DNA of 64,000 bases, from positions 1 through 64,000 of IMG/VR virus record IMGVR_UViG_2832142748_000002. One strand, written 5' to 3'. Below are positions 38,307-64,000 of the stretch, one piece after another. Numbering within the stretch: the stretch's first letter is position 1; each line of letters begins with the position of its first letter. The notes beneath the pieces are model-generated. The model did not search any database, had not been told where the DNA came from, and was given only the letters and a program-made list of their open reading frames with translations. Source of the stretch: a virus (taxonomy: Duplodnaviria > Caudoviricetes). A program made the translations under genes and the position numbers.

Positions 38307-39365
38307 TCAGTCCTCCACCGTTGGGTCCGCCTTCTTCACGTTGTGGCTGAGGAGGCCGTCGGAGACGTAGGTGTGCGCGCCCGCCACGGTGAGGCGTACC
38401 ACCGGCCCGCGCTCACCGCGCGTCACCTGGCGCACCACGCCCGGCCGGGCGCCCACCAGTCGCGTGCCGGCCGCGAGGTGCCGCAGTTCCACCCAGGCGT
38501 CCTCCGTCCGCACGCGGTGGGTGCCGGTGGCCTCCAGGCGTCGGCCGTCCTCCAACTCCAGCAGCCAGCGGACGCCCTCGGCGGGCTCCGCTGCGATGAC
38601 GGGGAAGACGTCCCACTCCAGCGTCTCCTCGTCCTGGGTGCGCACCGCCATGCCCACCTGGACTTCGCCTGCCGGCACTTCCCGGCCGTCCGCCAGGAGG
38701 ATGGGCACCCACGGCGCGGGGCAGGTGCCGCCGCCAGGGGTGGTTCCGCCGACGCCCGTCTGTCCGCTGCCGCTGTTGCCCCCGAAGCCGCCGTCGGACC
38801 ACTCGGTGACGATGCCGGCGGAGACGACGCAGCTGCCCACCTCCATCTCCCCGTAGCAGATGGGCACCGGGTGGCCCTGGGCGAGCGTGTTGACGGGGCC
38901 GTTGAAGACGTAGCTGGGCTTGTTGGCGTCCTTCTCGTCAGGCCCATTCGCGGTGGGCGGGGCGAAGAGGAGCTGGGAGACGCCGCCGGCCATCAGGGAG
39001 ATGCCCGCGGTGATGAGGGGCACGCCCGCGCCGTACCCGTAGACGGAGAGGACGACGCCGGCGGCGATGAGCACCGCACCCGCCACCACCTGGAACCAGC
39101 CGGACTTCGCCCCGGCCAGCGCGGGCATGAGGGTGAGGACGCGCGCGCCGGTGGGCATGCCCAGGTCGTCCTCCCCCACGTCCCGCTTGCCCGCGAAGAC
39201 GTGGTAGCCGGGCTCGCTGTTCTCCGCGAGGTAGCGCCGGAAGCCGTCGCAGACGGCCGAGAGGGCGCGCACCGCCTCCGCAGGCGAGGGCACCGAGAGG
39301 TCCATCTTCCACACGCGCCCGAAGCGCTTCCCCAGCGGACCACCCAGGACGATGGTCGTCAGCAT
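38307..39365 (-). CDS. Lambda gpI-like tail assembly protein with an appended Hint domain
   Basis: LGGPLGKRFGR..SPAEAVRAL...FNGPVNTLAQGHPVPICYGEMEVGS; Hint C...ATGTH...LLSHN (38340-38723). Confidence 0.9.
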   Translation of the reverse strand: MLTTIVLGGPLGKRFGRVWKMDLSVPSPAEAVRALSAVCDGFRRYLAENSEPGYHVFAGKRDVGEDDLGMPTGARVLTLMPALAGAKSGWFQVVAGAVLIAAGVVLSVYGYGAGVPLITAGISLMAGGVSQLLFAPPTANGPDEKDANKPSYVFNGPVNTLAQGHPVPICYGEMEVGSCVVSAGIVTEWSDGGFGGNSGSGQTGVGGTTPGGGTCPAPWVPILLADGREVPAGEVQVGMAVRTQDEETLEWDVFPVIAAEPAEGVRWLLELEDGRRLEATGTHRVRTEDAWVELRHLAAGTRLVGARPGVVRQVTRGERGPVVRLTVAGAHTYVSDGLLSHNVKKADPTVED

Positions 39366-40090
39366 CGGGAGACGTGCCTCACGACGCGCTGGGTGATGCG
39401 CTCCCAGAAGCCGGAGTACGTCTCCCGGCCGGACAGGCGCCCCATGACGTGGTGCAGGAGGACATCCCCGCCCAGGTAGACGCCCGCGTGGTTGGGCACC
39501 GGGGCGCGCAGCTGCATAAGGAGGACGTCATGCTCGCGCAGGGCCTGGCCCGTCACATCCACGAAGCCCGCCCGGCCGAAGCCCTCCTGGTAGAGGTTGC
39601 CACCCTTCGCCCACCAGTCGTCCGGGCGCTCGAAGTCGGGCAGTGCCAGGCCCAGGCGCTCCCGGTAGTAGTCCTGGATGAGGGAGTAGCAGTCCAGGAC
39701 GCCGTGGCTGAAGGTGCGGCCCACCAGCGGCGGCCGGTAGCCGTCCGGGTACCAGAGGCACCAGTGCCCCACCGGCACGTTGAGGATAAGCCAGGGCAGG
39801 CCCCAGCGCTCCATCATCACCCGGTCCGCCTCGCTCGGCTCCGGCGCGGCGTTGGGGTGGGAGTGCACCACTGCCACCACCTCGCCATCCCCTTCCGCCC
39901 GCGCATAGTCCTCGGGCGACAGGACGAAGTGCGCCTGGCCGTCGGCGAGGTTCCGGCAGGGCCGGTACCGCTGGGCGCCTCCAACCAGCACCACGAGGCC
40001 GCAGGACTCGCGGGGATAGTCCGCCTGGGCGTGTGCGAACGCGGCGCCCAGGACGTCATCAGCCAGCGTCAGCCGGCAGGGGTCGACCAT
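39359..40090 (-). CDS. Lambda gpK-like JAB + NlpC/P60 tail assembly protein
   Basis: RESCGLVV, VHSHPNAAPEPSEAD, GVLDCYSL, NHAGVY. Confidence 0.92.
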   Translation of the reverse strand: MVDPCRLTLADDVLGAAFAHAQADYPRESCGLVVLVGGAQRYRPCRNLADGQAHFVLSPEDYARAEGDGEVVAVVHSHPNAAPEPSEADRVMMERWGLPWLILNVPVGHWCLWYPDGYRPPLVGRTFSHGVLDCYSLIQDYYRERLGLALPDFERPDDWWAKGGNLYQEGFGRAGFVDVTGQALREHDVLLMQLRAPVPNHAGVYLGGDVLLHHVMGRLSGRETYSGFWERITQRVVRHVSRC

Positions 40091-54990: not shown

Positions 54991-55373
54991 GCGGACACCC
55001 GGAGGTTGAAGAGGATGGGGGTGCCGCCCAGCTGCGTCGGCGGGTCCGTGCGCAGCACGCGCCAGGTGCGGCCCTCCAGTGGGCCCACGGTGTCGCCCGG
55101 CGCCGGCACCACAGGCAGGCCGCCAGCCGCGACGAGCACCTTCCGCCGGTCCGCGCGGGTGGTGCCGCCGTCGGTGAGGCTGTCGCCCTCCTTGTCCTGG
55201 CCGCTGTCCGCCTGCACCAGCACCTGGACGGGGTACGTCGCCGTGGACGCCACCACCTTCGCGGTGGCCACGTCGTAGGTGCCCGGCCCGGCCCGCGTGA
55301 GGGTGGCCTCCTGGCCGTAGCGCTTCACCAGCGCCAGGGCCTTCGTCGCCAACCTGTCGGCCTGGGCGCTCAT
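54987..55373 (-). CDS. Head-closure / head-tail joining protein
   Basis: LVKRYGQEATLTR...PAPGDTV; coupled by ATGA overlaps. Confidence 0.75.
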   Translation of the reverse strand: MSAQADRLATKALALVKRYGQEATLTRAGPGTYDVATAKVVASTATYPVQVLVQADSGQDKEGDSLTDGGTTRADRRKVLVAAGGLPVVPAPGDTVGPLEGRTWRVLRTDPPTQLGGTPILFNLRVSA

Positions 55374-55861
55374 CCGCGCACCGTGGTGTGGACGCGGATG
55401 CCGCCCGCGCTGCCCTGGACGAGGGGCCCCAGCAGCGCCAGTACCTGGGAGGGGATGGGCCGGTGCGTCTCCTTCGACGTCTTCAGCGGGCCCACCGTCA
55501 CGCCCTCGTCCACCACGGGCCCGAGGCCGGCCGTCCAGTCCTCGCCCAGCAGCCGGAAGGCGAACTCCGCCACCGCGGCCTTCACGCGCCGGGGGACGGC
55601 GCCCTCCGCCACCGGGCACCCGTCGAGCACCACGCCCCGGCGTGGCCAGGCCAGTGCCTGCTCCGCGTCGGCGCGCGCGCCCAGCCACTCACAGCGCGAG
55701 TCCAGGACGGACGTCGCCCACTGCAGGTGCCGCTCCTTCGCCGCCACGTCAGCAGCGGCCCAGGCGTCGTTGTGGCCGCGCGCCGCGTGGTAGGCGTCCG
55801 CCTCCGCGACGTCGCAGTAGGAGTCGGTGAGCGGGCCGCCGGGGGTGGTGTCGAGCGCCAT
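55370..55861 (-). CDS. Head-tail adaptor (DnaT-like annotation family)
   Basis: DSYCDVAEADAYHAARG...QALAWPR...VPRRVKAA. Confidence 0.8.
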   Translation of the reverse strand: MALDTTPGGPLTDSYCDVAEADAYHAARGHNDAWAAADVAAKERHLQWATSVLDSRCEWLGARADAEQALAWPRRGVVLDGCPVAEGAVPRRVKAAVAEFAFRLLGEDWTAGLGPVVDEGVTVGPLKTSKETHRPIPSQVLALLGPLVQGSAGGIRVHTTVRG

Positions 55862-55882
55862 GGGCAGGTCCTCGTGCGCGGA

Positions 55883-56374
55883 CTACTTCGCCGCCTTGCC
55901 GGCCTTGGGCGCCTTCTCCTGGGCCTCGGTGGCGGGCGCGTCGGTGGCCGGTGCGCCCTTGGCACTGTTCTCGGTGGCGCCAGCGGTCGCACCCGCCTTG
56001 GCCTTCGCCTCCGCGCGCGCCAGCTTCGCCTCCAGGTCCTCGCGCTCGCGCCGGGCCCTCTCCAGCAGGCTCTCGCGCTCGCGGTGGGCCGCCTCCAACT
56101 GGGCCTGCAAATCCTCCACGTCCCGCGCGCTCACCTCCGAGGACGCCCCGCGGGCGGACGGCGTCTCGCCCTGGGACGCCAGCCAGGCGCGGTGCGCCTC
56201 GCGCCCTTCCAGGCTGCCCTCGGGGTAGGCGCTGTAGTAGCGCGTGAGGAGGCGCTGCGCGTGCTCACTGCCGCGCGAGGGGAGGATGAGCTCTCCCTCC
56301 TCGAAGCGGAAGCCGCCCAGCTCAATGTCCTTGCCCGCGTTCGGGCCCACCAAAACCATACGAATGCCGTCCAT
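55883..56374 (-). CDS. Hypothetical head-associated protein
   Basis: Lies between capsid and adaptor; Ala/Lys-rich tail. Confidence 0.65.
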   Translation of the reverse strand: MDGIRMVLVGPNAGKDIELGGFRFEEGELILPSRGSEHAQRLLTRYYSAYPEGSLEGREAHRAWLASQGETPSARGASSEVSARDVEDLQAQLEAAHRERESLLERARREREDLEAKLARAEAKAKAGATAGATENSAKGAPATDAPATEAQEKAPKAGKAAK

Positions 56375-56448
56375 GCGAAAGGCTCCTGTGCTGCCGAAGG
56401 TGTGAGGGAAGGAGGAGGGGCTGCCGACGCGGCCGACTCCTGGTGACG

Positions 56449-57381
56449 TCAGGCGAGGGGCGCGACGCGCACGCCCTTCACCACCGCGAGGGCGTAGTCG
56501 TTGTAGTTGGCCATGCCGCAGTACCAGACGATGCGGTCGATGCTCTCGTCCTTGGCCTGCGCCTCGCCCACCGTCTTGATGTGGATGCCCGCGCTGTCGC
56601 CCGGCGCCGTCAGCCCGGCGATGCCCACCTTCCGGCTGCCGTCGTCGAAGCAGCCCGCGGCGATGGTGGTGCAGTCGGTGGCCGTCCCCTGCGTCTGGTT
56701 GGTGGGGATGGAGTCATTCACGAAGATGGGAATGCCCCGGTACACCGGCACCGTCTTCCCACTGGGCAGGGTGAGGACGTCGTTGATGCTCGCGCCCCCC
56801 AGCTTGCGCAGGTAGGCGTAGTGCCGGTTGAGGAGCACCTCCGCCATGGTGATGAAGTCCACCTCGCCGTCCTTCGCCTTCACCTTCGAGATGAGGTCGT
56901 CGAGGATGCCCACGTCGTAGAGGGCGCCGTTGGTGCCGGCCACCAGCGTCTGGCCCGCCGCTACCTGGGTGAGGAGGCCGGGGAACTCGTCGTTGAGCCC
57001 CGTGCCGTTGATGAACATGTTGCGGAAGCGGCGCCCCGCGGCCTTCGCCTTGCTGGCCACCTGGTACGTCCGCTGGTCGTTGACGTTGCTGCGCGTGGCC
57101 TGGATGAGTCCGTCCACCTCCGCGTCGCCGATGATGCGCGTCAGCGTCGCGGTGGACTGCTCCACCGTGGCCGGATTCTTCGCGGTGATGGTGCCGCCGA
57201 CGCCGAGCACCTGCACGTCACCCAGCACCGACTCCTTGTTCCACGTGTGCGAGTTGCCCTCCAACTCGTCGAAGGGCAGCCGCTCGTAGAGGCGGTCGGT
57301 GGTGATGATGGTTTCGACGACACCGGCAACCAGGTCGTCTTTGCACAGCTTGGCGGACTCAGCGAGGGTGATGGAAGGCAT
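56449..57381 (-). CDS. Major capsid protein (HK97 fold)
   Basis: MPSITLAESAKL...LPFDELEGN...IIGDAEVD; follows the scaffold; GAGGAG RBS. Confidence 0.85.
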   Translation of the reverse strand: MPSITLAESAKLCKDDLVAGVVETIITTDRLYERLPFDELEGNSHTWNKESVLGDVQVLGVGGTITAKNPATVEQSTATLTRIIGDAEVDGLIQATRSNVNDQRTYQVASKAKAAGRRFRNMFINGTGLNDEFPGLLTQVAAGQTLVAGTNGALYDVGILDDLISKVKAKDGEVDFITMAEVLLNRHYAYLRKLGGASINDVLTLPSGKTVPVYRGIPIFVNDSIPTNQTQGTATDCTTIAAGCFDDGSRKVGIAGLTAPGDSAGIHIKTVGEAQAKDESIDRIVWYCGMANYNDYALAVVKGVRVAPLA

Positions 57382-57554
57382 GCGGGTGGACTCCTCCTCG
57401 GGGAGAGGGAGGTGAAACAGGGCGGGAAGACGCGCCAAGGGCGAAGGGGTGTCAGGGCCCCGGGGCGTATGAAAGGGATTGGACGAGAGGGGCACTGCCG
57501 GGCATCCCGCCCGGTTCGCCTCGGTGACGCATCCCGCGTCCTCGGGGCCTACTC

Positions 57555-58304
57555 CTATTTGCGATTGGCCAAGCCCGCCGAGATGCGCTGCGTCGGGTTC
57601 AGCTTGTCGCTACCGCTGGGCATCGCGCCCGTCCTCGGCCCCGGTTGCGTCCCGCTTCCGGAGGCACTCGTGCTGTCGAAGGCACGAGCGAAGTTGGCGT
57701 CCTTCTTGAGCTCCGTGACGAACTCTCGAATCGTCAGGAAGCCGCCCTTGCCGTTGCCGCGAGGATCGCCCTCCGCGTCAACAACCCGAGCCAAGAATGA
57801 ACCACCTTCCTCAATCACTTTCACATGCTTCTGGACGTGGGGCAAGAGCAACACCGCACTTCCTTTCAGCTCCGCGAGGGCTGCCGTGGCCTCCGCGTCC
57901 ACGAGGTGCTTGTGGAGCGAGGCGCGCATGCGCTCCACGACGGTGTCGCGCTCGCCGAGCGCCTTCGCGTGGCCGGCCTCGAGGTCCGCCTTCAGCTTCT
58001 CGAAGTTGGCAGCGCCGTCCTTCCCTTCCTGGGCCTTCGCCAGCGCCGCCTTCAGCTCGCCGAGGGACTTCTCCACGTCCTCCGGCGTCTTGCCGAGCTT
58101 CAGCCACGCCGCCTGGGCCGTCGTCAGCGCCTTGCTGCTCTTGCGCTCCTTGTCCAGGGCGGTGGTGAGCCCACTGTGGTCCATGCGCTTGAAGACGTCC
58201 GCGTCGAGGGCGAACTTGCCGCCCTCCCCCTTCGCGTACAGCCCGCGGAACTTCTCCGGGACGATGTCCAGCGCGTCCAGCTCCTGCTGCCACTCGAATT
58301 CCAC
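57555..58304 (-). CDS. Capsid scaffolding protein
   Basis: Coiled coil, GLTTALDKERK, C-terminal SGSG...NPTQRISAGL. Confidence 0.8.
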   Translation of the reverse strand: MEFEWQQELDALDIVPEKFRGLYAKGEGGKFALDADVFKRMDHSGLTTALDKERKSSKALTTAQAAWLKLGKTPEDVEKSLGELKAALAKAQEGKDGAANFEKLKADLEAGHAKALGERDTVVERMRASLHKHLVDAEATAALAELKGSAVLLLPHVQKHVKVIEEGGSFLARVVDAEGDPRGNGKGGFLTIREFVTELKKDANFARAFDSTSASGSGTQPGPRTGAMPSGSDKLNPTQRISAGLANRK

Positions 58305-58334
58305 GTGTCTGCCTTTCTCGGCCCAACGGGCCGG

Positions 58335-59534
58335 CTACAGCTGTGCCTTCTTGAAAGCGGCGGCCTCGGTGGCGCGCAGCGCGTCCAGGGTGAGCGTCTT
58401 GCCGCTGGCGTCGGTGAAGCTGCCGAGGCGGAGGCCTCCGTCCCGGAAGAGGCGCCCGCGCGCGGGCCCCAACACCTCGTCCTGGAAGCTGGTGGGCTGA
58501 CGGCGCAGCCAGTCCTCGTAGGACAGGCCCTTCGGCGCGGAGCCGATGTTCTCCTTGGCCCAGCGCTCGCGGACGCGCTTCACCGCAGCGCCGCGCTCCT
58601 TCTCCGTCATGTCCTTCCATGCCTCGCCGGCCTTCGCCTTTGCCTCGGCCCGGAAGTCGATTTCCCGGTTCCGCCTGTCGCGCGTGTCCCGGACGGTGGG
58701 CCTGTCGCCCACGAGGCGCACGCCGTCGATGACGGGGATGGTGGTGCTGCGGCAGCGCCAGTGCGCCGGCGGTCGCGGGCCCCCGCGCACCGGGAAGGTG
58801 TGGCCGTCACGGGAGGCGCACAGCAGCGTGGTGCGGCCGTCCAGCGTGGACACCCAGCGCACCTCTCGCACCAGGTCCTCGTTGGCCCGGTACACCTCCT
58901 CGCGGGCCTGGGTGGCCACGTGGTTGAGGGCGGTGCGCGCCACGGCTTCCGCGCCGCGGCGGCTGCCCTCCAGTGCCCCATCCCCGCTGACGAGGTCCCG
59001 GACAATCTGCTGCGTCGTCCGGCCCTCCACCACCCCGGCCTGAATGGTGCGCTCGATGCGCGCCAGGTCCGCCGGCTCCATGCCGCCCACCCACGTCTCG
59101 AAGAGGGCGCCGTTGAAGGGCCTGGAGAAGACGGCCGCCTCCAGCACCTCCGCCGTGGGCGCGGCGATGGAGACGTCCACGATGAGCGTCTCCTCCAGCA
59201 GGGCCGCCTGCCACCGCGCCTCGTACGCCGCGAAGGAGGCCGCCTCCTCCTGCAGCGTGCTGGAGATGGCCGCGTAGGCTCCGGCCCGGAGGGTGCGCAC
59301 CTCGGACAGCAGGCCCGCGATGCGCTCCGTCGTCTCGCGGCCGGTGTCGTACCCGCCCGTGTCCTCGACGGCCTGGAGGCGCGAGGCGAGCTGCTCCGTC
59401 AGGCGCTCCTCCGTGTCATTGAGGAGGCCCACGACGCGCCGGGCGACGCCCGCCTTGTAGCGCTCCAGCTGGACGGCGTGCGCGACGGAGCGCTCCAGCA
59501 GCTCCTCGTTGGCGGTGGGGAGGCCGGTGCTCAC
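58335..59534 (-). CDS. SPP1 gp7 / Mu gpF-like head morphogenesis protein
   Basis: VARTALNH...RWVSTLDGRTT..C...PPAHWRCRSTTIP. Confidence 0.9.
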   Translation of the reverse strand: MSTGLPTANEELLERSVAHAVQLERYKAGVARRVVGLLNDTEERLTEQLASRLQAVEDTGGYDTGRETTERIAGLLSEVRTLRAGAYAAISSTLQEEAASFAAYEARWQAALLEETLIVDVSIAAPTAEVLEAAVFSRPFNGALFETWVGGMEPADLARIERTIQAGVVEGRTTQQIVRDLVSGDGALEGSRRGAEAVARTALNHVATQAREEVYRANEDLVREVRWVSTLDGRTTLLCASRDGHTFPVRGGPRPPAHWRCRSTTIPVIDGVRLVGDRPTVRDTRDRRNREIDFRAEAKAKAGEAWKDMTEKERGAAVKRVRERWAKENIGSAPKGLSYEDWLRRQPTSFQDEVLGPARGRLFRDGGLRLGSFTDASGKTLTLDALRATEAAAFKKAQL

Positions 59535-59749
59535 CGCGTCCCCCGCTTCACCTGGACGGGTGCGTTGGAGCGCTGCTCGCGGAGATGCCGCGCCTGATGC
59601 AGCTCACGCAGACGGCGGCGTACCTTCCGCGCACCGCGGCGGTTGGAGCGGAACCAGTGGGCGGCCCGCGCGAAGTCTTCCGTGAGGCACGGCAGTTGCT
59701 CCCCAAGGAGTCCCGCCGCGCACAGCGTCTCGTCATGGAGCAGCTTCAC
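59531..59749 (-). CDS. Small basic hypothetical protein
   Basis: Four-base start/stop overlaps with both portal and gp7. Confidence 0.55.
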   Translation of the reverse strand: MKLLHDETLCAAGLLGEQLPCLTEDFARAAHWFRSNRRGARKVRRRLRELHQARHLREQRSNAPVQVKRGTR

Positions 59750-61227
59750 AGGGCACCTCCGGCGAGCTGCCCAGGCCCCTGCGCGGACGGCACCTGGCCG
59801 CCAGCCGCCGGCGCCGTGCGGAGGCTGCCCAGGGCGGGCCCCTCGCTCGCGAGGCGCTCCCCATCCGCCTCCACGTCGAAGTCGGCCATGAGGACGCCGC
59901 GGCGCTTGAGCTCCGCCAGGAAGGCCTCGCGGGAAATCTCCCGGGCCGCGCGCGCCTTGAAGAGGACGTCCAGGCCCTGCGCGTCAGACTCGGAGATGCC
60001 GAAGTCGGTGTGCACCTCCACCTTCAGCTTCGCGTCTTCCACGTCCAGGGCCAGCCACCGGGCCGCGAAGTAAAAAGCCAGCTCCAGCGCGTCGCTGAAG
60101 GACTCCGCCATGGCCTGCAGCTCGGAGTGCGACTGCGCGGTGTTGATCGACTTCTCGGTGGCCGTGGGGGTGCCGGAGCGCCGGACGAGGAGTTCCACGC
60201 CCAGCATGGCCATCTCGTCCTTCAAGTCCTCCAGGTCCTGCCGGCCGGCCTCGATGGCCTTCCCCGAGTGCTCGACGTAGTAGAACTTCCCCTGCGGACT
60301 GCTGGTGGTGAGGAGCGCGTGGGGCCCCACCGTCACCTTCCCCGAGCCTCGTGACTCCCCTTCCCCGCGGTCCTGCTCCAGCCCAGAGGCCGCCAGGATG
60401 GGGAAGCGCGCCACGTTGAGGATGTTCCGCTGGTCGCTGGCGGACTGCCAGTGCTCCACGTTCTTGTCCGCCAGGTCCATCAGCGGCGGCTTCGCGGCGC
60501 ACAGGGCCGTGCGCTCCCCGGCGTACCAGGTGACGAGGGGGATGAAGCCCAGCGTGTTGGGGCCGCTCGCAGCCTCCTTCCACTCGCTGGTGCCGCTGCG
60601 CTCGTAGACGGTCCAGGTGTCGCGCTCGAGGACGCGCACCCGCTCCACCTTCACCTCGTCGAAGCCGTCCCGGCGCGTCTCGCTCTCGCGGATGCGCACG
60701 TGGGTGAGCACCTCCACCCCGCCCACCGTCTCCGCGTACGCGGCGATGAGGGACTCGGCGGAGACGTGCACGAAGTAAGGGCGGAGGCCGGCGCGCTGCT
60801 CGTCCTCCAGCGTCTTCACCGTCTCCGAGTCCACCACCGGGAAGTCCACGAGGATGTGGGCGAGGCCCTTGGCCAGGCCGTCCCGGAAGACGCCGCGGGC
60901 CCAGGCGGTGACGTCGCTGCCCTGCCTGTCCACGTCATCCACCAGGACGCGCAGCGGCTCCGGCGCGGAGTCGCCCAGGCGCACCGGCTTGGCGAAGGGC
61001 TTCGCGGCGAGGTTGCGCACCGTCTTGCCGAAGACGTTGAGGAGGACGGCGCGCGCGAGGCGCTCCTTGTACGCCGCGTCCTCCTCCGCGTGGTACTGCG
61101 GCAGGTAGGTGCGGCCGGCGGCGCGCATGGTGCCGGTGCCGCCCAGGAGGGCCAGGACGAGGGCCCATGCGGGCTGCATGGCCCGGTAGGCGCCGCTGGG
61201 GGTGCTGACGTCGGAGGCGCCGCTCAT
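59746..61227 (-). CDS. Portal protein (DUF4055-like)
   Basis: LLGGTGTMRAAGRTYLP...Y..RLARAVLLN...KPPLMDLA..NVEHWQSASD. Confidence 0.9.
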   Translation of the reverse strand: MSGASDVSTPSGAYRAMQPAWALVLALLGGTGTMRAAGRTYLPQYHAEEDAAYKERLARAVLLNVFGKTVRNLAAKPFAKPVRLGDSAPEPLRVLVDDVDRQGSDVTAWARGVFRDGLAKGLAHILVDFPVVDSETVKTLEDEQRAGLRPYFVHVSAESLIAAYAETVGGVEVLTHVRIRESETRRDGFDEVKVERVRVLERDTWTVYERSGTSEWKEAASGPNTLGFIPLVTWYAGERTALCAAKPPLMDLADKNVEHWQSASDQRNILNVARFPILAASGLEQDRGEGESRGSGKVTVGPHALLTTSSPQGKFYYVEHSGKAIEAGRQDLEDLKDEMAMLGVELLVRRSGTPTATEKSINTAQSHSELQAMAESFSDALELAFYFAARWLALDVEDAKLKVEVHTDFGISESDAQGLDVLFKARAAREISREAFLAELKRRGVLMADFDVEADGERLASEGPALGSLRTAPAAGGQVPSAQGPGQLAGGAL

Positions 61228-61760
61228 CCGGGCACCACGAGGAAGGGGCCTCGCACGCCGTTGTTGAAGCGCTCCGCCGCGCGAAGGGCCGTACGCACGC
61301 GCTCCACCGGCTTCGCGCCCTTGGTGGCGAAAAGGGCTCCGCGCGCGACGTCCGCACCGCAGCCGACAGCCGCGAAGGAGTCCCGCGACTCGCCCACCTG
61401 GTAGTCGTCTTCGACCGTGAAGAGGCGGCCGCAGACGCCCACCAGGAAGTGGCCACCGCGCTCCTGTCCGTTCTCCTGGTGCGCGAAACCCGCGTCCTTC
61501 AGCGTCGCGCGCAAGGCATCAACGAAGTCCACCACCATGAAGCGCTCCAGGGCGCTTGTCCGGCGAGGTGGCGGCGGCGGCCGGAAGGCGTGGCGCAGCA
61601 CCTGTCCCATCCGGAAGGAGGTGGTGAAACCGAGGACGTAGGGCCCGTTGCGGAACACCTTCGCGTCCTTCCGCACCACCAACTGCCAGCTGTTGGAGCC
61701 AGCGCTGTCCCCGCCGACGTACACGCGTCCCTGGTGAACCACTCCGGCAATGCACGTCAC
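61224..61760 (-). CDS. HslV / proteasome-beta-like Ntn threonine peptidase
   Basis: After Met removal: T1, D17 and K33 at canonical spacing; AAVGCG in place of AIGSG. Confidence 0.8.
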   Translation of the reverse strand: MTCIAGVVHQGRVYVGGDSAGSNSWQLVVRKDAKVFRNGPYVLGFTTSFRMGQVLRHAFRPPPPPRRTSALERFMVVDFVDALRATLKDAGFAHQENGQERGGHFLVGVCGRLFTVEDDYQVGESRDSFAAVGCGADVARGALFATKGAKPVERVRTALRAAERFNNGVRGPFLVVPG

Positions 61761-62254
61761 AGCACCACCTCCATGCGGCGGATCGCCGCCTCGCCGCACA
61801 CCGCGGTGAAGACGCTCGCCACCACGTGGCCCTGCATCGCGGACGGGCCGGACAGCAGCAGGTGCAGCACCTCCGGCCGCTCGGCGTTGAGGGTCTCGCG
61901 AACGGAGGCCTCGTCGGTGCGCGACAACCTGGCGGGCCCACCCGGGTGGGTGTGCCAGTCGCCCAGGTAGCGCAGGCACGGAGACACCCGGCCCAGGAGG
62001 CGGTTGTCGCGGACGCGGTCCGCCGCGAAGCCCACGCGGCCGCGCACGGCACGCCGGCCTGGGCCGGTGATGGCGAGCACGTGGGCCTCGCCGTCCACCA
62101 CGGCGCCCAGCAGCAGGCCGCCCGTCTCCAGCGGGGCGCGTACCCGCGCCAGGCGCAGGGCCTTCGCCAAGACGCCGGGCGCCAGGCGCACGCGGTAGCC
62201 GTCGGAGACGTAAAGGGCCGGCGCCGACGCCGACGGCAGCGGGCAGGCCATCAC
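61757..62254 (-). CDS. Prok-JAB / JAMM metalloisopeptidase (deubiquitinase-like)
   Basis: ETGGLLLG...AITGPG...YLGDWHTHPGGPARLSRTD = E...HxH-x7-S-x2-D. Confidence 0.88.
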   Translation of the reverse strand: MMACPLPSASAPALYVSDGYRVRLAPGVLAKALRLARVRAPLETGGLLLGAVVDGEAHVLAITGPGRRAVRGRVGFAADRVRDNRLLGRVSPCLRYLGDWHTHPGGPARLSRTDEASVRETLNAERPEVLHLLLSGPSAMQGHVVASVFTAVCGEAAIRRMEVVL

Positions 62255-63807
62255 CGGTAGCTCCTCACCTGGAAGGTGGCGGTCCCCTCGCCGAGCATCA
62301 GCTCCGTGAGGGCCCACACCTCCGCGTCCATGCGGTTGGGGCTCCAGGTGGACTCCCCGGGCACCCACGTCGTCTGCTCGTCCTCCAGCGCGGGCAGGCG
62401 CCCCACGTGGTGGGCCATGCCGCGCTCGAAGAGGGCCGCCACCGGCTCCGCGCGCTTCGCCTTGCCACGCGAGGCCGTCACCACCTTTACGGTGACGTGC
62501 TTCTTCATCTCGCGGGCCTTGGCGCGGAGGTTCGTCTCCACCATGTCGCCGCCGAAGTTCTTCTCGCCCACAACAGCGTCCGCGCTCTCTTTCTCGTAGA
62601 CGGCCAGGGACTTCGCGGCCCATCCCTCCGCGGAGTACTTCGCGGAGTCGTCGCGCCAAACGTAGGCGTGGCCGTTGCTGGCCTTGCCCGCGCAGACGAT
62701 GCCCACCTCGTCGTTGGCGGGCCCGTCGCCGCCGGCAGGGTCGACCGCCACCACCACGCGCACCATGGGCAGGGGGTTGCCCTCGGCGTCCTTCGGCAGC
62801 GAGGAGACGCGGGTGTTGTCCAGCACCTCCTGCGTCCACAGCGCGCCCACCGCTGCGGCCTTGAAGGCCTCCTCCACCGTCGCCGGGTACTCGCGGCGGA
62901 AGTCGTGGATGCCCTTCTCGTAGACGGAAATCTTCGCCCGGCGCCAGGCGAGCTGCGCGTCGTCCAGCTCGAAGCCGTGCGCCTCGCGGCAGAGGGCGGC
63001 GTACCGCTCCTCCTCGCTGGTGCGCTCGAAGCCGGGCGGCACCTCGCGCCGGTACTCCTCCTGCCAGAACCAGGGGACGAAGATGAGCTCGAAGTCGTTC
63101 TCCCCCTTCTGCGCCGCCATGCACAGGTGGTGGAAGAGGCCCTGGGGCCCGTCGCTGGTGCTCTCCAGGATGACTTCGGTGCCCGGCGCCGTCGGCACGC
63201 CCTCCATGACGCCGCGCATGTGCGTCGCGGCGTTGGGCCAGAAGGCCACCTCGCTGCCGTGGAAGTACTGGATGGTGGAGGAGCGGCCCGTCCCTTTCGC
63301 GCCCGCAGTGCCCACCTTGTAGCCGGAGGACAGCTTGTCGAAGAGGAGCTCCTTCGCGTTGGAGGCGCTCGTCGAAGGCTTCACCAGGGCCGGAACGTGG
63401 TCGTGGTACCTCTTCGCCATGTCGAAGAGGTTCACCGTCGCCGCGTCCTCGTGCGTGAGGATGTAGGCGCGCACGCCCTTCAGGTGGCTCACCTTCCAGT
63501 AGAAGCGGGCCTCGACGTACGTGCTGCAGCCCTGCTGGCGCCCCTTCAGGACGATGGCGCGCACGAAGCCCCGGCGCTTCAGCTGGGCCTCCAGCCGCTC
63601 GTGGATGTACAGCTGCGCGCGGTTCAGCTTCAGCGCCGGCAGCTCCCCGCCCGTCACCTCCTTCGGGCGGATGCGCAGGCACCGCGAGGCGTAGTGCGGG
63701 AAGTCGTCCTTCAGCCGCTGGCGGATGGCCTTCTCTCGCGCAGAGAGGGGCGCTGGGGCCGCGCCCTGGCGGGACTCGGCCGCGCGGCGGCGGGCGGGGG
63801 CGCTCAT
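62251..63807 (-). CDS. terL: Terminase large subunit
   Basis: IVLKGRQQGCST, FHGSEVAFW, ILEST..G, VVAVDPAGG, RMDAEVWAL. Confidence 0.93.
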   Translation of the reverse strand: MSAPARRRAAESRQGAAPAPLSAREKAIRQRLKDDFPHYASRCLRIRPKEVTGGELPALKLNRAQLYIHERLEAQLKRRGFVRAIVLKGRQQGCSTYVEARFYWKVSHLKGVRAYILTHEDAATVNLFDMAKRYHDHVPALVKPSTSASNAKELLFDKLSSGYKVGTAGAKGTGRSSTIQYFHGSEVAFWPNAATHMRGVMEGVPTAPGTEVILESTSDGPQGLFHHLCMAAQKGENDFELIFVPWFWQEEYRREVPPGFERTSEEERYAALCREAHGFELDDAQLAWRRAKISVYEKGIHDFRREYPATVEEAFKAAAVGALWTQEVLDNTRVSSLPKDAEGNPLPMVRVVVAVDPAGGDGPANDEVGIVCAGKASNGHAYVWRDDSAKYSAEGWAAKSLAVYEKESADAVVGEKNFGGDMVETNLRAKAREMKKHVTVKVVTASRGKAKRAEPVAALFERGMAHHVGRLPALEDEQTTWVPGESTWSPNRMDAEVWALTELMLGEGTATFQVRSYR

Positions 63808-64000
63808 TCCAGCGCCCCCAGCGCGTCCTCGTGGCTGAACTGGACGGTGGTCTCCACCTTGTCGACGAAGAGGCGCAGGTGCTTGCCCAGCAGCTCCAAG
63901 GACTTCGTCTTGTCCCAGAGCTTCACCTTGGCCACGGTGCCGATGGCCTCGCCGTCCACGGTGAGCTGCTCCACCTCGATGGAGGAGATGGCTCGGCGCA
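63804..64000 (-). CDS. terS: Terminase small subunit (partial, C-terminal end)
   Basis: AISSIEVEQ...KVKLWDKTKSLELLGKHLRLF; ATGA overlap with terL. Confidence 0.85.
   Translation of the reverse strand, partial: RRAISSIEVEQLTVDGEAIGTVAKVKLWDKTKSLELLGKHLRLFVDKVETTVQFSHEDALGALE

What the first reader, a model, noticed from the sequence alone, without database searches (positions are those of the whole stretch)
61224..62254. Deubiquitinase-like JAB and proteasome-beta-like protease wedged between terminase and portal
Seen: terL-JAB-HslV-like-portal are chained by GTGA/GTGA/ATGA overlaps, so they are likely co-translated as late genes. The JAB has an intact JAMM motif, and the Ntn protein has T1/D17/K33. 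Known: this JAB type (ETGG..G..GPG..YLG.WHTHP) resembles Cap3 of type II CBASS and the deubiquitinase of Bil systems. Bil conjugates Ubl to the phage central tail fibre, and Cap2 conjugation primes CD-NTases. Inference: the pair may be a phage anti-ubiquitylation module that removes and degrades host Ubl/CD-NTase conjugates during assembly. Alternatively, no S78 or S49 prohead protease is visible in the head module, so the HslV-like protein may be the maturation protease.
Basis: partly seen in the sequence, partly recalled or inferred. Interest (0 to 1): 0.9.

Follow-up and report, generated by a model that had tools for sequence, protein, structure and literature searches.

The report
Phage Cap3-like isopeptidase plus proteasome-like peptidase
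A prophage of a myxobacterium carries two intact accessory peptidase genes between its terminase and portal genes: one resembles the enzyme that switches off CBASS immune priming and may be a viral counter-defence tool, the other is a phage-borne proteasome relative of unknown role, and they are separate passengers rather than a fixed pair or a head-maturation protease.

Summary
On the minus strand, terL (62251-63807), a 165-aa JAB (61757-62254), a 178-aa N-terminal-Thr hydrolase (61224-61760) and the portal (59746-61227) are chained by GTGA/GTGA/ATGA overlaps. The JAMM motif and T1/D17/K33 are intact.

The JAB is Cap3-like. CBASS JAB profiles give the best matches, and the best solved structure is a Cap3-CD-NTase complex (9ILD, TM 0.75/0.81). 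Its nearest non-phage relatives follow Cap2-type E1-E2 genes.

The second protein is a BPH/HslV-like proteasome homologue. It most likely belongs to the AAH group described in 2021 and is common in phages and prophages.

The two genes are not an obligate module:
- In related Myxococcaceae prophages the terL-portal junction is empty, holds the JAB alone, holds the JAB plus a protein with a weak Tad2-like domain match, or holds JAB plus Ntn.
- Only 5 of 160 other Ntn loci have a JAB nearby, and all 5 are myxophage.

Relatives with the same head module lack the Ntn gene, so a prohead-protease role is unlikely.

The lysogen itself encodes a canonical type II CBASS. The most likely role of the JAB, untested, is reversal of Cap2-made conjugates late in infection.

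This scan had already reached the same reading for JAB-only relatives on other DNA.

The parts
62251..63807 (-). Terminase large subunit (terL)
   Evidence: Pfam Terminase_6C 2.6e-10; PHROG terL families, e.g. phrog_979 2e-20.
61757..62254 (-). Orphan Cap3-like JAB/JAMM isopeptidase, 165 aa. GTG start overlaps the terL stop (GTGA); an in-frame ATG follows at 62251.
   Evidence: Prok-JAB 1.5e-11. PADLOC CBASS JAB 5e-17 and TIGR02256 1e-12, both NCBIfam scores below their cut-offs. AF2 model pLDDT 92.7; best PDB match 9ILD Cap3, TM 0.75/0.81. JAMM residues invariant. dN/dS 0.21-0.30.
61224..61760 (-). Proteasome-homologue Ntn peptidase, 178 aa (AAH-like, BPH/HslV fold). GTGA overlap with the JAB stop, ATGA overlap with the portal start.
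   Evidence: phrog_1040 1.4e-19. T2/D18/K34 invariant. AF2 pLDDT 91; BPH 5OVS TM 0.80, HslV about 0.70. More than 2300 homologues and 204 phage records. GC3 0.86 against 0.95-0.96 for its neighbours. dN/dS about 0.11.
59746..61227 (-). Portal protein (DUF4055 type)
   Evidence: PF13264 1.3e-40; phrog_145 6e-134.
58335..59534 (-). MuF-like head morphogenesis protein
   Evidence: PF04233 1.3e-9; phrog_241 2.8e-126.
57555..58304 (-). Head scaffolding protein
   Evidence: phrog_206 1.8e-34.
56449..57495 (-). Major head protein. The true start is probably near 57381, because the PHROG match begins at residue 39.
   Evidence: phrog_212 3e-61.

Best explanation
The terL-portal junction of this Myxococcaceae temperate-phage lineage is a cargo slot. 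Here it holds two separately acquired accessory peptidase genes. Each is spliced in with 4-nt stop/start overlaps, so both are translated with the late packaging and head genes.

(1) The JAB is an orphan relative of Cap3, the isopeptidase of type II CBASS. It most likely cleaves the bond at the C-terminus of CD-NTases (or of other substrates of Cap2-type E1-E2 enzymes). That would undo the conjugation that primes cyclic-nucleotide signalling, at the time when capsid and packaging proteins are made. This makes it a candidate anti-CBASS enzyme of a kind not yet described.

(2) The Ntn protein is a free-standing proteasome homologue of the BPH/HslV group, most likely AAH. It becomes active once its initiator Met is removed. 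It is a widespread mobile phage and prophage gene whose target is unknown, and it acts independently of the JAB.

Shown here: the anatomy, family resemblance, folds, separability of the two genes, purifying selection, and the presence of Cap2/Cap3 CBASS in the host.

Inferred: the substrates and the counter-defence role.
For: Cap3 likeness of the JAB:
- CBASS JAB profiles give the best matches.
- 9ILD (Cap3-CD-NTase) is the best match both by sequence and by fold, ahead of Rpn11 by three orders of E-value.
- The nearest non-phage homologues P0036, P0040 and P0071 each lie directly after a Prok-E2_B+ThiF gene.
- In a quick tree the myxophage JABs form one clade (SH-aLRT 95) that groups with four CD-NTase+Cap2-linked Cap3s (SH-aLRT 91).
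- It is an orphan: no E1/E2 lies next to it.

Cargo slot:
- G139: terL and portal directly coupled by GTGA, no insert.
- G066: an unrelated 298-aa gene.
- G064: a 521-aa protein with a C-terminal Tad2-like domain, plus the JAB.
- G143, G166, L213, L214, L218, L220, L221: JAB alone.
- The window and at least 6 others: JAB plus Ntn.

Host targets:
- Contig C344 of the lysogen encodes patatin - CD-NTase (C-terminal Ala) - Cap2 (E2_B+ThiF) - Cap3.
- Contig C485 encodes a further CD-NTase ending in Gly next to a ThiF protein.
- Cap2-type E2_B is found in 16 of 208 Myxococcaceae genomes.

Other support:
- Cap3 is an established cGAS isopeptidase that reverses conjugation (PMC10097602).
- Orphan JABs with the same YLGDWHTHP motif sit in packaging or head modules of unrelated phages: lambda-like L225, Mu-like L226, BPP-1-like L228 and L229.
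- Ntn: fold and catalytic triad; broad occurrence in phages and prophages; described phage proteasome homologues (PMC8665760).
Against: - No biochemical or genetic test exists, and substrate specificity cannot be read from the sequence.
- The JAB scores far below the curated cut-offs of TIGR02256 (48 against 128 bits) and NF050170 (30 against 200 bits).
- It is only 35% identical over 68 residues to the host's own Cap3.
- Its closest E1-E2-linked relatives have no visible CD-NTase nearby, so the natural substrate of this subclade may not be a CD-NTase.
- Of the six genomes carrying the JAB prophage, only this one has a Prok-E2_B gene.
- The repeated placement of orphan JABs inside head modules could instead point to a virion-assembly role.
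- The Tad2-like match in the same slot is below Pfam's cut-off (20.3 against 25 bits).
Confidence: 0.45

Rival explanations
1. JAB and Ntn work as one module, a miniature Rpn11-plus-proteasome. The JAB strips Ubl or CD-NTase conjugates and the Ntn ring degrades them.
For: - The two genes are adjacent and translationally coupled.
- After Cap3, the next-best structural matches of the JAB are Rpn11 proteins.
- The pair recurs in at least 7 related prophage loci.
Against: - The JAB stands alone in at least 5 closely related prophages. One of these is 92% identical to the window's JAB and lies in the same genome as a JAB+Ntn prophage (L213 against L212).
- The Ntn has no Cap3-like JAB within 6 kb in 155 of 160 loci by profile search.
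- Ntn GC3 is 0.86 against 0.95 for the JAB, which suggests a separate and later acquisition.
- The junction DNA shows the Ntn as a clean insertion after the JAB's ...IRRME.
Confidence: 0.08
2. The HslV-like Ntn protein is the prohead maturation protease of this phage.
For: - No S78/S49-type protease is detected in the head module.
- Some Ntn homologues lie next to terL, terS, portal or MuF genes in other phages.
Against: - Prophages with the same terL-portal-MuF-scaffold-MCP module lack it: G139, G066, G064, G143, G166, L213 and L214.
- The module has a separate scaffolding protein (phrog_206). From general knowledge, such heads (SPP1, P22) need no protease.
- In two other phages the gene directly downstream of the Ntn is a classical head maturation protease, phrog_80.
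- In Geobacillus virus E3 and Psychrobacter phage D'Alembert it lies among nucleotide-metabolism, methylase and small unnamed genes.
- Many homologues sit in non-phage chromosomal contexts.
Confidence: 0.04
3. The JAB serves virion assembly. It would process a head or packaging protein, or be packaged and injected, rather than attack a host defence.
For: - Orphan Cap3-like JABs lie inside packaging or head modules of at least four unrelated phage types.
- Stand-alone JAB 'metalloproteases' are annotated in many actinophages, e.g. Mycobacterium phage Patience and Gordonia phage Yikes.
Against: - The JAB is absent from two prophages of the same lineage whose head genes align full length (G139, G066).
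- The actinophage JABs are only distant structural matches (TM 0.45-0.55, E at least 5e-5), against Cap3 at TM 0.75-0.81 and E 8e-11.
- No candidate Ubl-type or GG-ended substrate was identified in the head module.
Confidence: 0.15
4. Lysogenic conversion: the prophage genes act for the lysogen. They might damp autoimmunity of the host's own CBASS or alter host proteostasis, rather than help lytic growth.
For: - The lysogen has several CBASS operons, one of which (C485) has a Cap2-like gene but no Cap3.
- The prophage carries other moron-like genes (first-stage notes).
Against: - The genes have no room for a promoter of their own, because of the 4-nt overlaps on both sides.
- No promoter-like site was found in 55000-64000.
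- They should therefore be silent in a repressed prophage.
Confidence: 0.08

Closest known systems
Cap3 of type II CBASS (V. cholerae VC0181 / TIGR02256; NF050170; PDB 9ILD Cap3-CD-NTase complex)
   Same: The JAMM catalytic motif, the ETGG and YLGDWHTHP signature motifs, and a size of about 160 aa. It is the best match by sequence and by fold. The nearest cellular relatives follow Cap2-type E1-E2 genes.
   Different: It is encoded alone in a phage late operon, with no Cap2 or CD-NTase. It scores well below the curated family cut-offs. It is 35% identical over 68 aa to the host's own Cap3. If it acts as proposed, it would work against the defence system rather than as its internal regulator.
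AAH and PPH proteasome homologues of phages and their hosts (Fuchs, Alva, Lupas 2021, PMC8665760); BPH (PDB 5OVS); HslV
   Same: A compact N-terminal-Thr hydrolase without a propeptide; T1/D17/K33; the fold is closest to BPH (TM 0.80) and then HslV (about 0.70). Homologues are concentrated in Actinobacteria and alpha-proteobacteria and occur in phages, matching the description of AAH.
   Different: No HslU-like ATPase partner is nearby. It matches no Pfam proteasome model and no NCBIfam HslV model. It is 178 aa, longer than the roughly 140-aa PPH of T5-like phages, which align to only about 77% of it. Here it sits in a myxophage head operon.
Known anti-CBASS proteins: Acb1, Acb2/Vs.4, Acb3, Acb4, ICP3 gp15
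   Same: A proposed role as a phage-encoded antagonist of CBASS.
   Different: The known antagonists degrade or sequester the nucleotide signal, or inhibit the cyclase or the effector. None is an isopeptidase. The EVADES catalogue text has no mention of JAB, isopeptidase or ubiquitin.
Lambda gpK-type tail-assembly JAB and actinophage head-module JAB 'metalloproteases' (e.g. Mycobacterium phage Patience)
   Same: Phage-encoded JAB domains inside structural operons. This same prophage also has a gpK-like JAB at 39359-40090.
   Different: They are only distant structural matches (BFVD TM 0.43-0.63). The myxophage JAB is much closer to bacterial Cap3.

Membership tests
Prok-JAB (PF14464) | Score above Pfam's gathering cut-off, with an intact E...HxHx7SxxD motif | tested here: met
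   44.6 bits against a cut-off of 25. E43, H101, H103, S111 and D114 are invariant in A3.
Cap3 (TIGR02256 / NF050170) | Score above the curated NCBIfam cut-offs | tested here: not met
   TIGR02256: 48.1 bits against 127.6. NF050170: 30.5 bits against 200.
Cap3 (TIGR02256 / NF050170) | Encoded in an operon with a Cap2 E1-E2 fusion and a CD-NTase | tested here: not met
   The flanking genes are terL and Ntn/portal. The host's real Cap3 operon is elsewhere, on C344.
Cap3 (TIGR02256 / NF050170) | Fold closest to solved Cap3 | tested here: met
   9ILD_A: E 8e-11, TMq 0.75, TMt 0.81. It ranks first, ahead of Rpn11.
Cap3 (TIGR02256 / NF050170) | Cleaves conjugates or fusions at the CD-NTase C-terminus | not testable with these tools
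   This needs biochemistry.
BilC (Bil system deubiquitinase) | JAB encoded with a Ubl, an E2 and an E1 (BilABCD), or specific similarity to BilC | tested here: inconclusive
   No Ubl, E1 or E2 lies nearby. No Bil entry is among the best 50 PDB matches. No BilC profile was available to score.
Proteasome homologues, group I (AAH/BPH/HslV) | N-terminal catalytic Thr directly after Met, plus D17 and K33 | tested here: met
   T2, D18 and K34 are invariant in 24 homologues.
Proteasome homologues, group I (AAH/BPH/HslV) | Ntn alpha-beta-beta-alpha fold like BPH/HslV | tested here: met
   Model pLDDT 91. 5OVS BPH TM 0.80; HslV about 0.70.
AAH cluster (PMC8665760) | Clusters with the AAH representative (WP_035979212) | not tested
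   The representative sequence was not on hand. The assignment rests on size, fold and the Actinobacteria/alpha-proteobacteria/phage distribution.
HslV proper | Matches HslV/proteasome curated models and pairs with HslU | tested here: not met
   No Pfam proteasome hit and no NCBIfam HslV hit. No AAA+ gene is adjacent.
Prohead maturation proteases (S78/S77/S14/S49 or Mu I type) | Homology to a known prohead protease family and a constant presence in the head module | tested here: not met
   No such family match. The gene is absent from relatives with the same head module.

The most novel reading that the evidence does not exclude
Phages have repeatedly captured Cap3-type isopeptidases and placed them in their late packaging/head operons as a new enzymatic class of anti-CBASS (anti-Cap2-conjugation) factor. 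In this myxophage lineage the terL-portal junction would then be a counter-defence islet: it also takes up a protein with a Tad2-like domain and a viral proteasome homologue, and that homologue may itself attack host defence proteins.
Probability: 0.3. Interest if true: 0.75.

Novelty: new variant of a known kind. Interest (0 to 1): 0.55.

Why it matters
Type II CBASS is primed by ubiquitin-like conjugation of its cyclase. Every phage antagonist described so far acts on the nucleotide signal, the cyclase or the effector, not on the conjugation step.

A virus-encoded Cap3 mimic would be the first counter-defence aimed at a bacterial ubiquitin-like modification. It would parallel the deubiquitinases and deISGylases of animal viruses. 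It can be tested directly with existing CBASS assays.

The work also gives a natural set of near-isogenic prophages: empty slot, JAB only, and JAB plus Ntn. These could be used to dissect both genes. It also places a 2021-described but functionally unknown phage proteasome homologue in a defined genetic context.

Tried and rejected
- The look-up of sequencing runs: no RNA holder is listed.
- The promoter/terminator scan of 55000-64000 found no promoter-like site, and terminator-like sites were at the level expected by chance.
- tblastn of the JAB against 50,697 phage records found no match at E 1e-3. The IMG/VR pattern scan was needed to find viral relatives.
- phmmer of the Ntn against PDB sequences found no hit. 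The fold search was needed.
- PADLOC has no model matching the Ntn.
- The careful maximum-likelihood JAB tree did not finish in time. Only the quick tree is reported, and its long branches (L229-L231) make several placements unsure.
- Rejected: that the 4-nt overlaps imply functional coupling of JAB and Ntn. The same overlaps couple terL directly to the portal in G139 and the JAB directly to the portal in L213, so they are a property of the slot.
- Rejected: recent capture of the host's own Cap3, given 35% identity over 68 aa.
Full report
**Anatomy.** The last 8 kb of the window is the packaging and head module of a prophage, all on the minus strand:
- terL, 62251-63807
- a 165-aa JAB protein, 61757-62254
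- a 178-aa N-terminal-Thr hydrolase (Ntn), 61224-61760
- a DUF4055-type portal, 59746-61227
- a MuF-like protein, 58335-59534
- a scaffolding protein, 57555-58304
- the major head protein, 56449-57495

These calls rest. The JAB has a complete JAMM motif (E43, H101xH103, S111, D114), invariant in 80 homologues. The Ntn protein begins M-T. T2, D18 and K34 (T1/D17/K33 after Met removal) are invariant in 24 homologues that are 57-85% identical to it. Both genes are under purifying selection relative to 90-95% identical relatives: dN/dS is 0.21-0.30 for the JAB and about 0.11 for the Ntn, similar to the portal and terL.

**What the JAB is.**
- It matches Pfam Prok-JAB.
- Its best profile matches are the 'JAB' models of CBASS in PADLOC (5e-17) and TIGR02256, the VC0181/Cap3 family. 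It scores far below the curated NCBIfam cut-offs.
- The only PDB sequence hit better than Rpn11 is 9ILD_A.
- A confident AlphaFold model (pLDDT 92.7) matches 9ILD_A, 'complex structure of Cap3 and CD-NTase', at TM 0.75/0.81 and E 8e-11. That is three orders of magnitude ahead of Rpn11.
- Viral JABs in BFVD, including the actinophage 'metalloproteases' and gpK-like proteins, are much more distant (TM 0.43-0.63).
- Close orthologues (60-90% identity) exist only in Myxococcaceae. The next relatives (below 50%) are cellular, and the three I could place each lie directly downstream of a Prok-E2_B+ThiF (Cap2-type) gene.
- In a quick tree the myxophage JABs form one clade that groups with four Cap3s from complete CD-NTase-Cap2-Cap3 operons (SH-aLRT 91). 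Long branches mean this should be read with care.

The protein therefore works like, and descends from, the Cap3 kind of JAB. It fails the formal family tests for score and operon context, so I call it Cap3-like and not Cap3.

**What the Ntn protein is.**
- It matches phrog_1040, 'peptidase HslV family', but no Pfam or NCBIfam model.
- Its model (pLDDT 91) is closest to the bacterial proteasome homologue BPH (5OVS, TM 0.80) and then to HslV (about 0.70).
- Homologues number over 2300 in the protein collection and occur in 204 phage records.
- The best genomic matches are concentrated in Actinobacteria (Dactylosporangium, Streptomyces, Actinoplanes) and alpha-proteobacteria (Mesorhizobium, Azospirillum, Devosia).
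- This fits the 'AAH' group of Fuchs, Alva and Lupas (2021), who also described the shorter 'PPH' of T5-like phages and noted that phages spread both (PMC8665760). I could not score it against their representative sequence, so AAH membership is inferred.

**Are the two a module?** No, on three lines of evidence.

First, I collected 160 loci encoding Ntn homologues: the best 80 from species genomes and the best 80 from IMG/VR. A profile search finds a Cap3-like JAB within 6 kb in only five of them, all Myxococcaceae prophages. Elsewhere the neighbours are very diverse. A minority are packaging or head genes: terL, terS, HNH, portal, MuF and, twice, a classical head maturation protease. Many are ordinary chromosomal genes. 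In Geobacillus virus E3 and Psychrobacter phage D'Alembert the gene lies among nucleotide-metabolism, methylase and small unnamed genes.

Second, I looked in the other direction, within 208 Myxococcaceae genomes and in IMG/VR. The same prophage lineage shows every state of the terL-portal junction:
- terL directly coupled to the portal by GTGA (G139)
- an unrelated 298-aa gene (G066)
- a 521-aa protein whose C-terminus weakly matches the Tad2-like (Thoeris anti-defence) domain, followed by the JAB (G064)
- the JAB alone (G143, G166, L213, L214, L218, L220, L221)
- JAB plus Ntn (the window, G141, G145 twice, L211, L212, L215, L217, L219; some of these may be the same genomes in two collections)

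One genome holds both a JAB-only and a JAB+Ntn prophage, with JABs 92% identical to the window's (L212 and L213).

Third, the junction DNA shows the Ntn as a clean insertion after the JAB's ...IRRME. Its GC3 (0.86) is lower than that of its neighbours (0.95-0.96).

The slot is thus a cargo hotspot. The 4-nt overlaps are a property of the slot, and the two genes arrived separately.

**Head-maturation protease?** This is unlikely. Relatives with the same terL-portal-MuF-scaffold-capsid module lack the Ntn gene, and two lack both genes. The module has its own scaffolding protein. Heads of that type are known to assemble without a protease (general knowledge of SPP1 and P22). In other phages the Ntn sits beside a classical prohead protease or outside the head module.

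**Likely mechanism of the JAB.**
- Cap3 is an established isopeptidase that removes the CD-NTase from the conjugates made by Cap2. Conjugation raises cyclic-nucleotide output and defence (PMC10097602).
- An orphan Cap3-like enzyme expressed with the late genes would be expected to reverse that priming.
- The lysogen itself has suitable targets. Contig C344 carries patatin - CD-NTase (ending ...SSSSA) - Cap2 (E2_B+ThiF) - Cap3. Contig C485 carries a CD-NTase with a SAVED effector, and a second CD-NTase ending in Gly next to a ThiF protein.
- Cap2-type E2_B genes occur in 16 of 208 Myxococcaceae species genomes, including both host genera.
- The phage JAB is not a recent copy of the host Cap3 (35% identity over 68 aa).
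- Orphan JABs with the same motifs also sit in packaging or head modules of unrelated viral contigs: between a gpA-sized gene and a lambda-type portal (L225), between Mu gpG-like and Mu protease-like genes (L226), after a T7-type portal and a Bbp19-like gene (L228), and directly before a gpA-type terL (L229).
- This repeated placement fits late-expressed counter-defence cargo, but it equally keeps a virion-related role open.
- I found no paper describing a phage Cap3 homologue as an anti-CBASS factor. The listed antagonists are Acb1-4 and an ejectosome protein, and a 268-protein anti-defence catalogue does not mention JAB or isopeptidase.
- Everything about substrate and phenotype remains inference.

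**The Ntn's role is open.** It is intact, conserved and widely mobile. It has no propeptide and no ATPase partner nearby. The best that can be said is that it is a free-standing proteasome-type peptidase carried as phage cargo.

**Relation to earlier notes of this scan.** A follow-up on a JAB-only relative in another genome reached the same Cap3-like, candidate anti-CBASS reading (e1-5794968). The same pair was flagged on another genome (e1-5865205). A separate note described actinophage head-module JABs (e1-4376138), which my fold search shows to be a more distant class.

**Verdict.** The genes and motifs are real. The Cap3 resemblance is well supported. The 'two-enzyme anti-ubiquitylation module' and 'maturation protease' readings are not supported. 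The finding is a new variant of known kinds: an orphan viral Cap3-like isopeptidase and a phage proteasome homologue sharing a cargo slot. Interest is moderate to good, mainly because the anti-conjugation hypothesis is new and directly testable.

Noticed in passing
L182:4224-5789 (G064, same slot between terL and JAB): A 521-aa repeat-rich protein whose last 60 residues weakly match the Tad2-like (Thoeris anti-defence 2) domain: PF11195, E 8e-4, 20.3 bits against a cut-off of 25. G066 has a related 298-aa N-terminal-type protein in the same slot (L183:4994-5890), with no family match.
   Followed up: partly
G000 contig C344 (L202:3808-8196, minus strand): A canonical type II CBASS in the lysogen: patatin effector, DncV-like CD-NTase ending in Ala, Cap2 (Prok-E2_B+ThiF), and Cap3 (Prok-JAB).
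   Followed up: yes
G000 contig C485 (L204:1215-9746): Two more CD-NTase genes in tandem. One has a SAVED-domain effector; the other has a 583-aa ThiF protein and no JAB. They are preceded by an ECF sigma factor and a Ser/Thr kinase gene. Both cyclases end in Gly.
   Followed up: partly
L225, L226, L228 (=L227), L229, L230 (IMG/VR contigs): Orphan Cap3-like JABs (YLGDWHTHP motif, intact JAMM) embedded in packaging or head modules of unrelated phages: lambda-like, Mu-like, BPP-1-like, and gpA-type terL neighbours.
   Followed up: partly
L187, L188, L189 (G145, G141): between portal and MuF: A second variable slot. Inserts of 1.7-3.5 kb separate portal and MuF in these relatives, whereas the two genes are about 200 nt apart in the window. 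The contents were not examined.
   Followed up: no
L015-L056 (28 Dactylosporangium loci): The Ntn homologue lies in a conserved, apparently chromosomal locus. It is preceded by one shared unknown ORF of about 240 aa that overlaps its start by 4 nt.
   Followed up: no
window 39359-40090 (-): A second Prok-JAB gene in the same prophage (E 3.7e-18). It lies in the tail module and is presumably the lambda gpK-type tail assembly protein.
   Followed up: no
window 57382-57495 (-): The longest ORF of the major head protein carries a 38-residue N-terminal extension not covered by the PHROG match. The real start is probably the ATG at 57381.
   Followed up: no
L207/L208:2579-3773: A Cap2-like E1-E2 plus JAB pair with no visible CD-NTase. 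It lies beside divergent HTH and Peptidase_M78 genes (CapH/CapP-like regulators) and a SIR2-TPR gene, and may be a conjugation-based defence module of another type.
   Followed up: no
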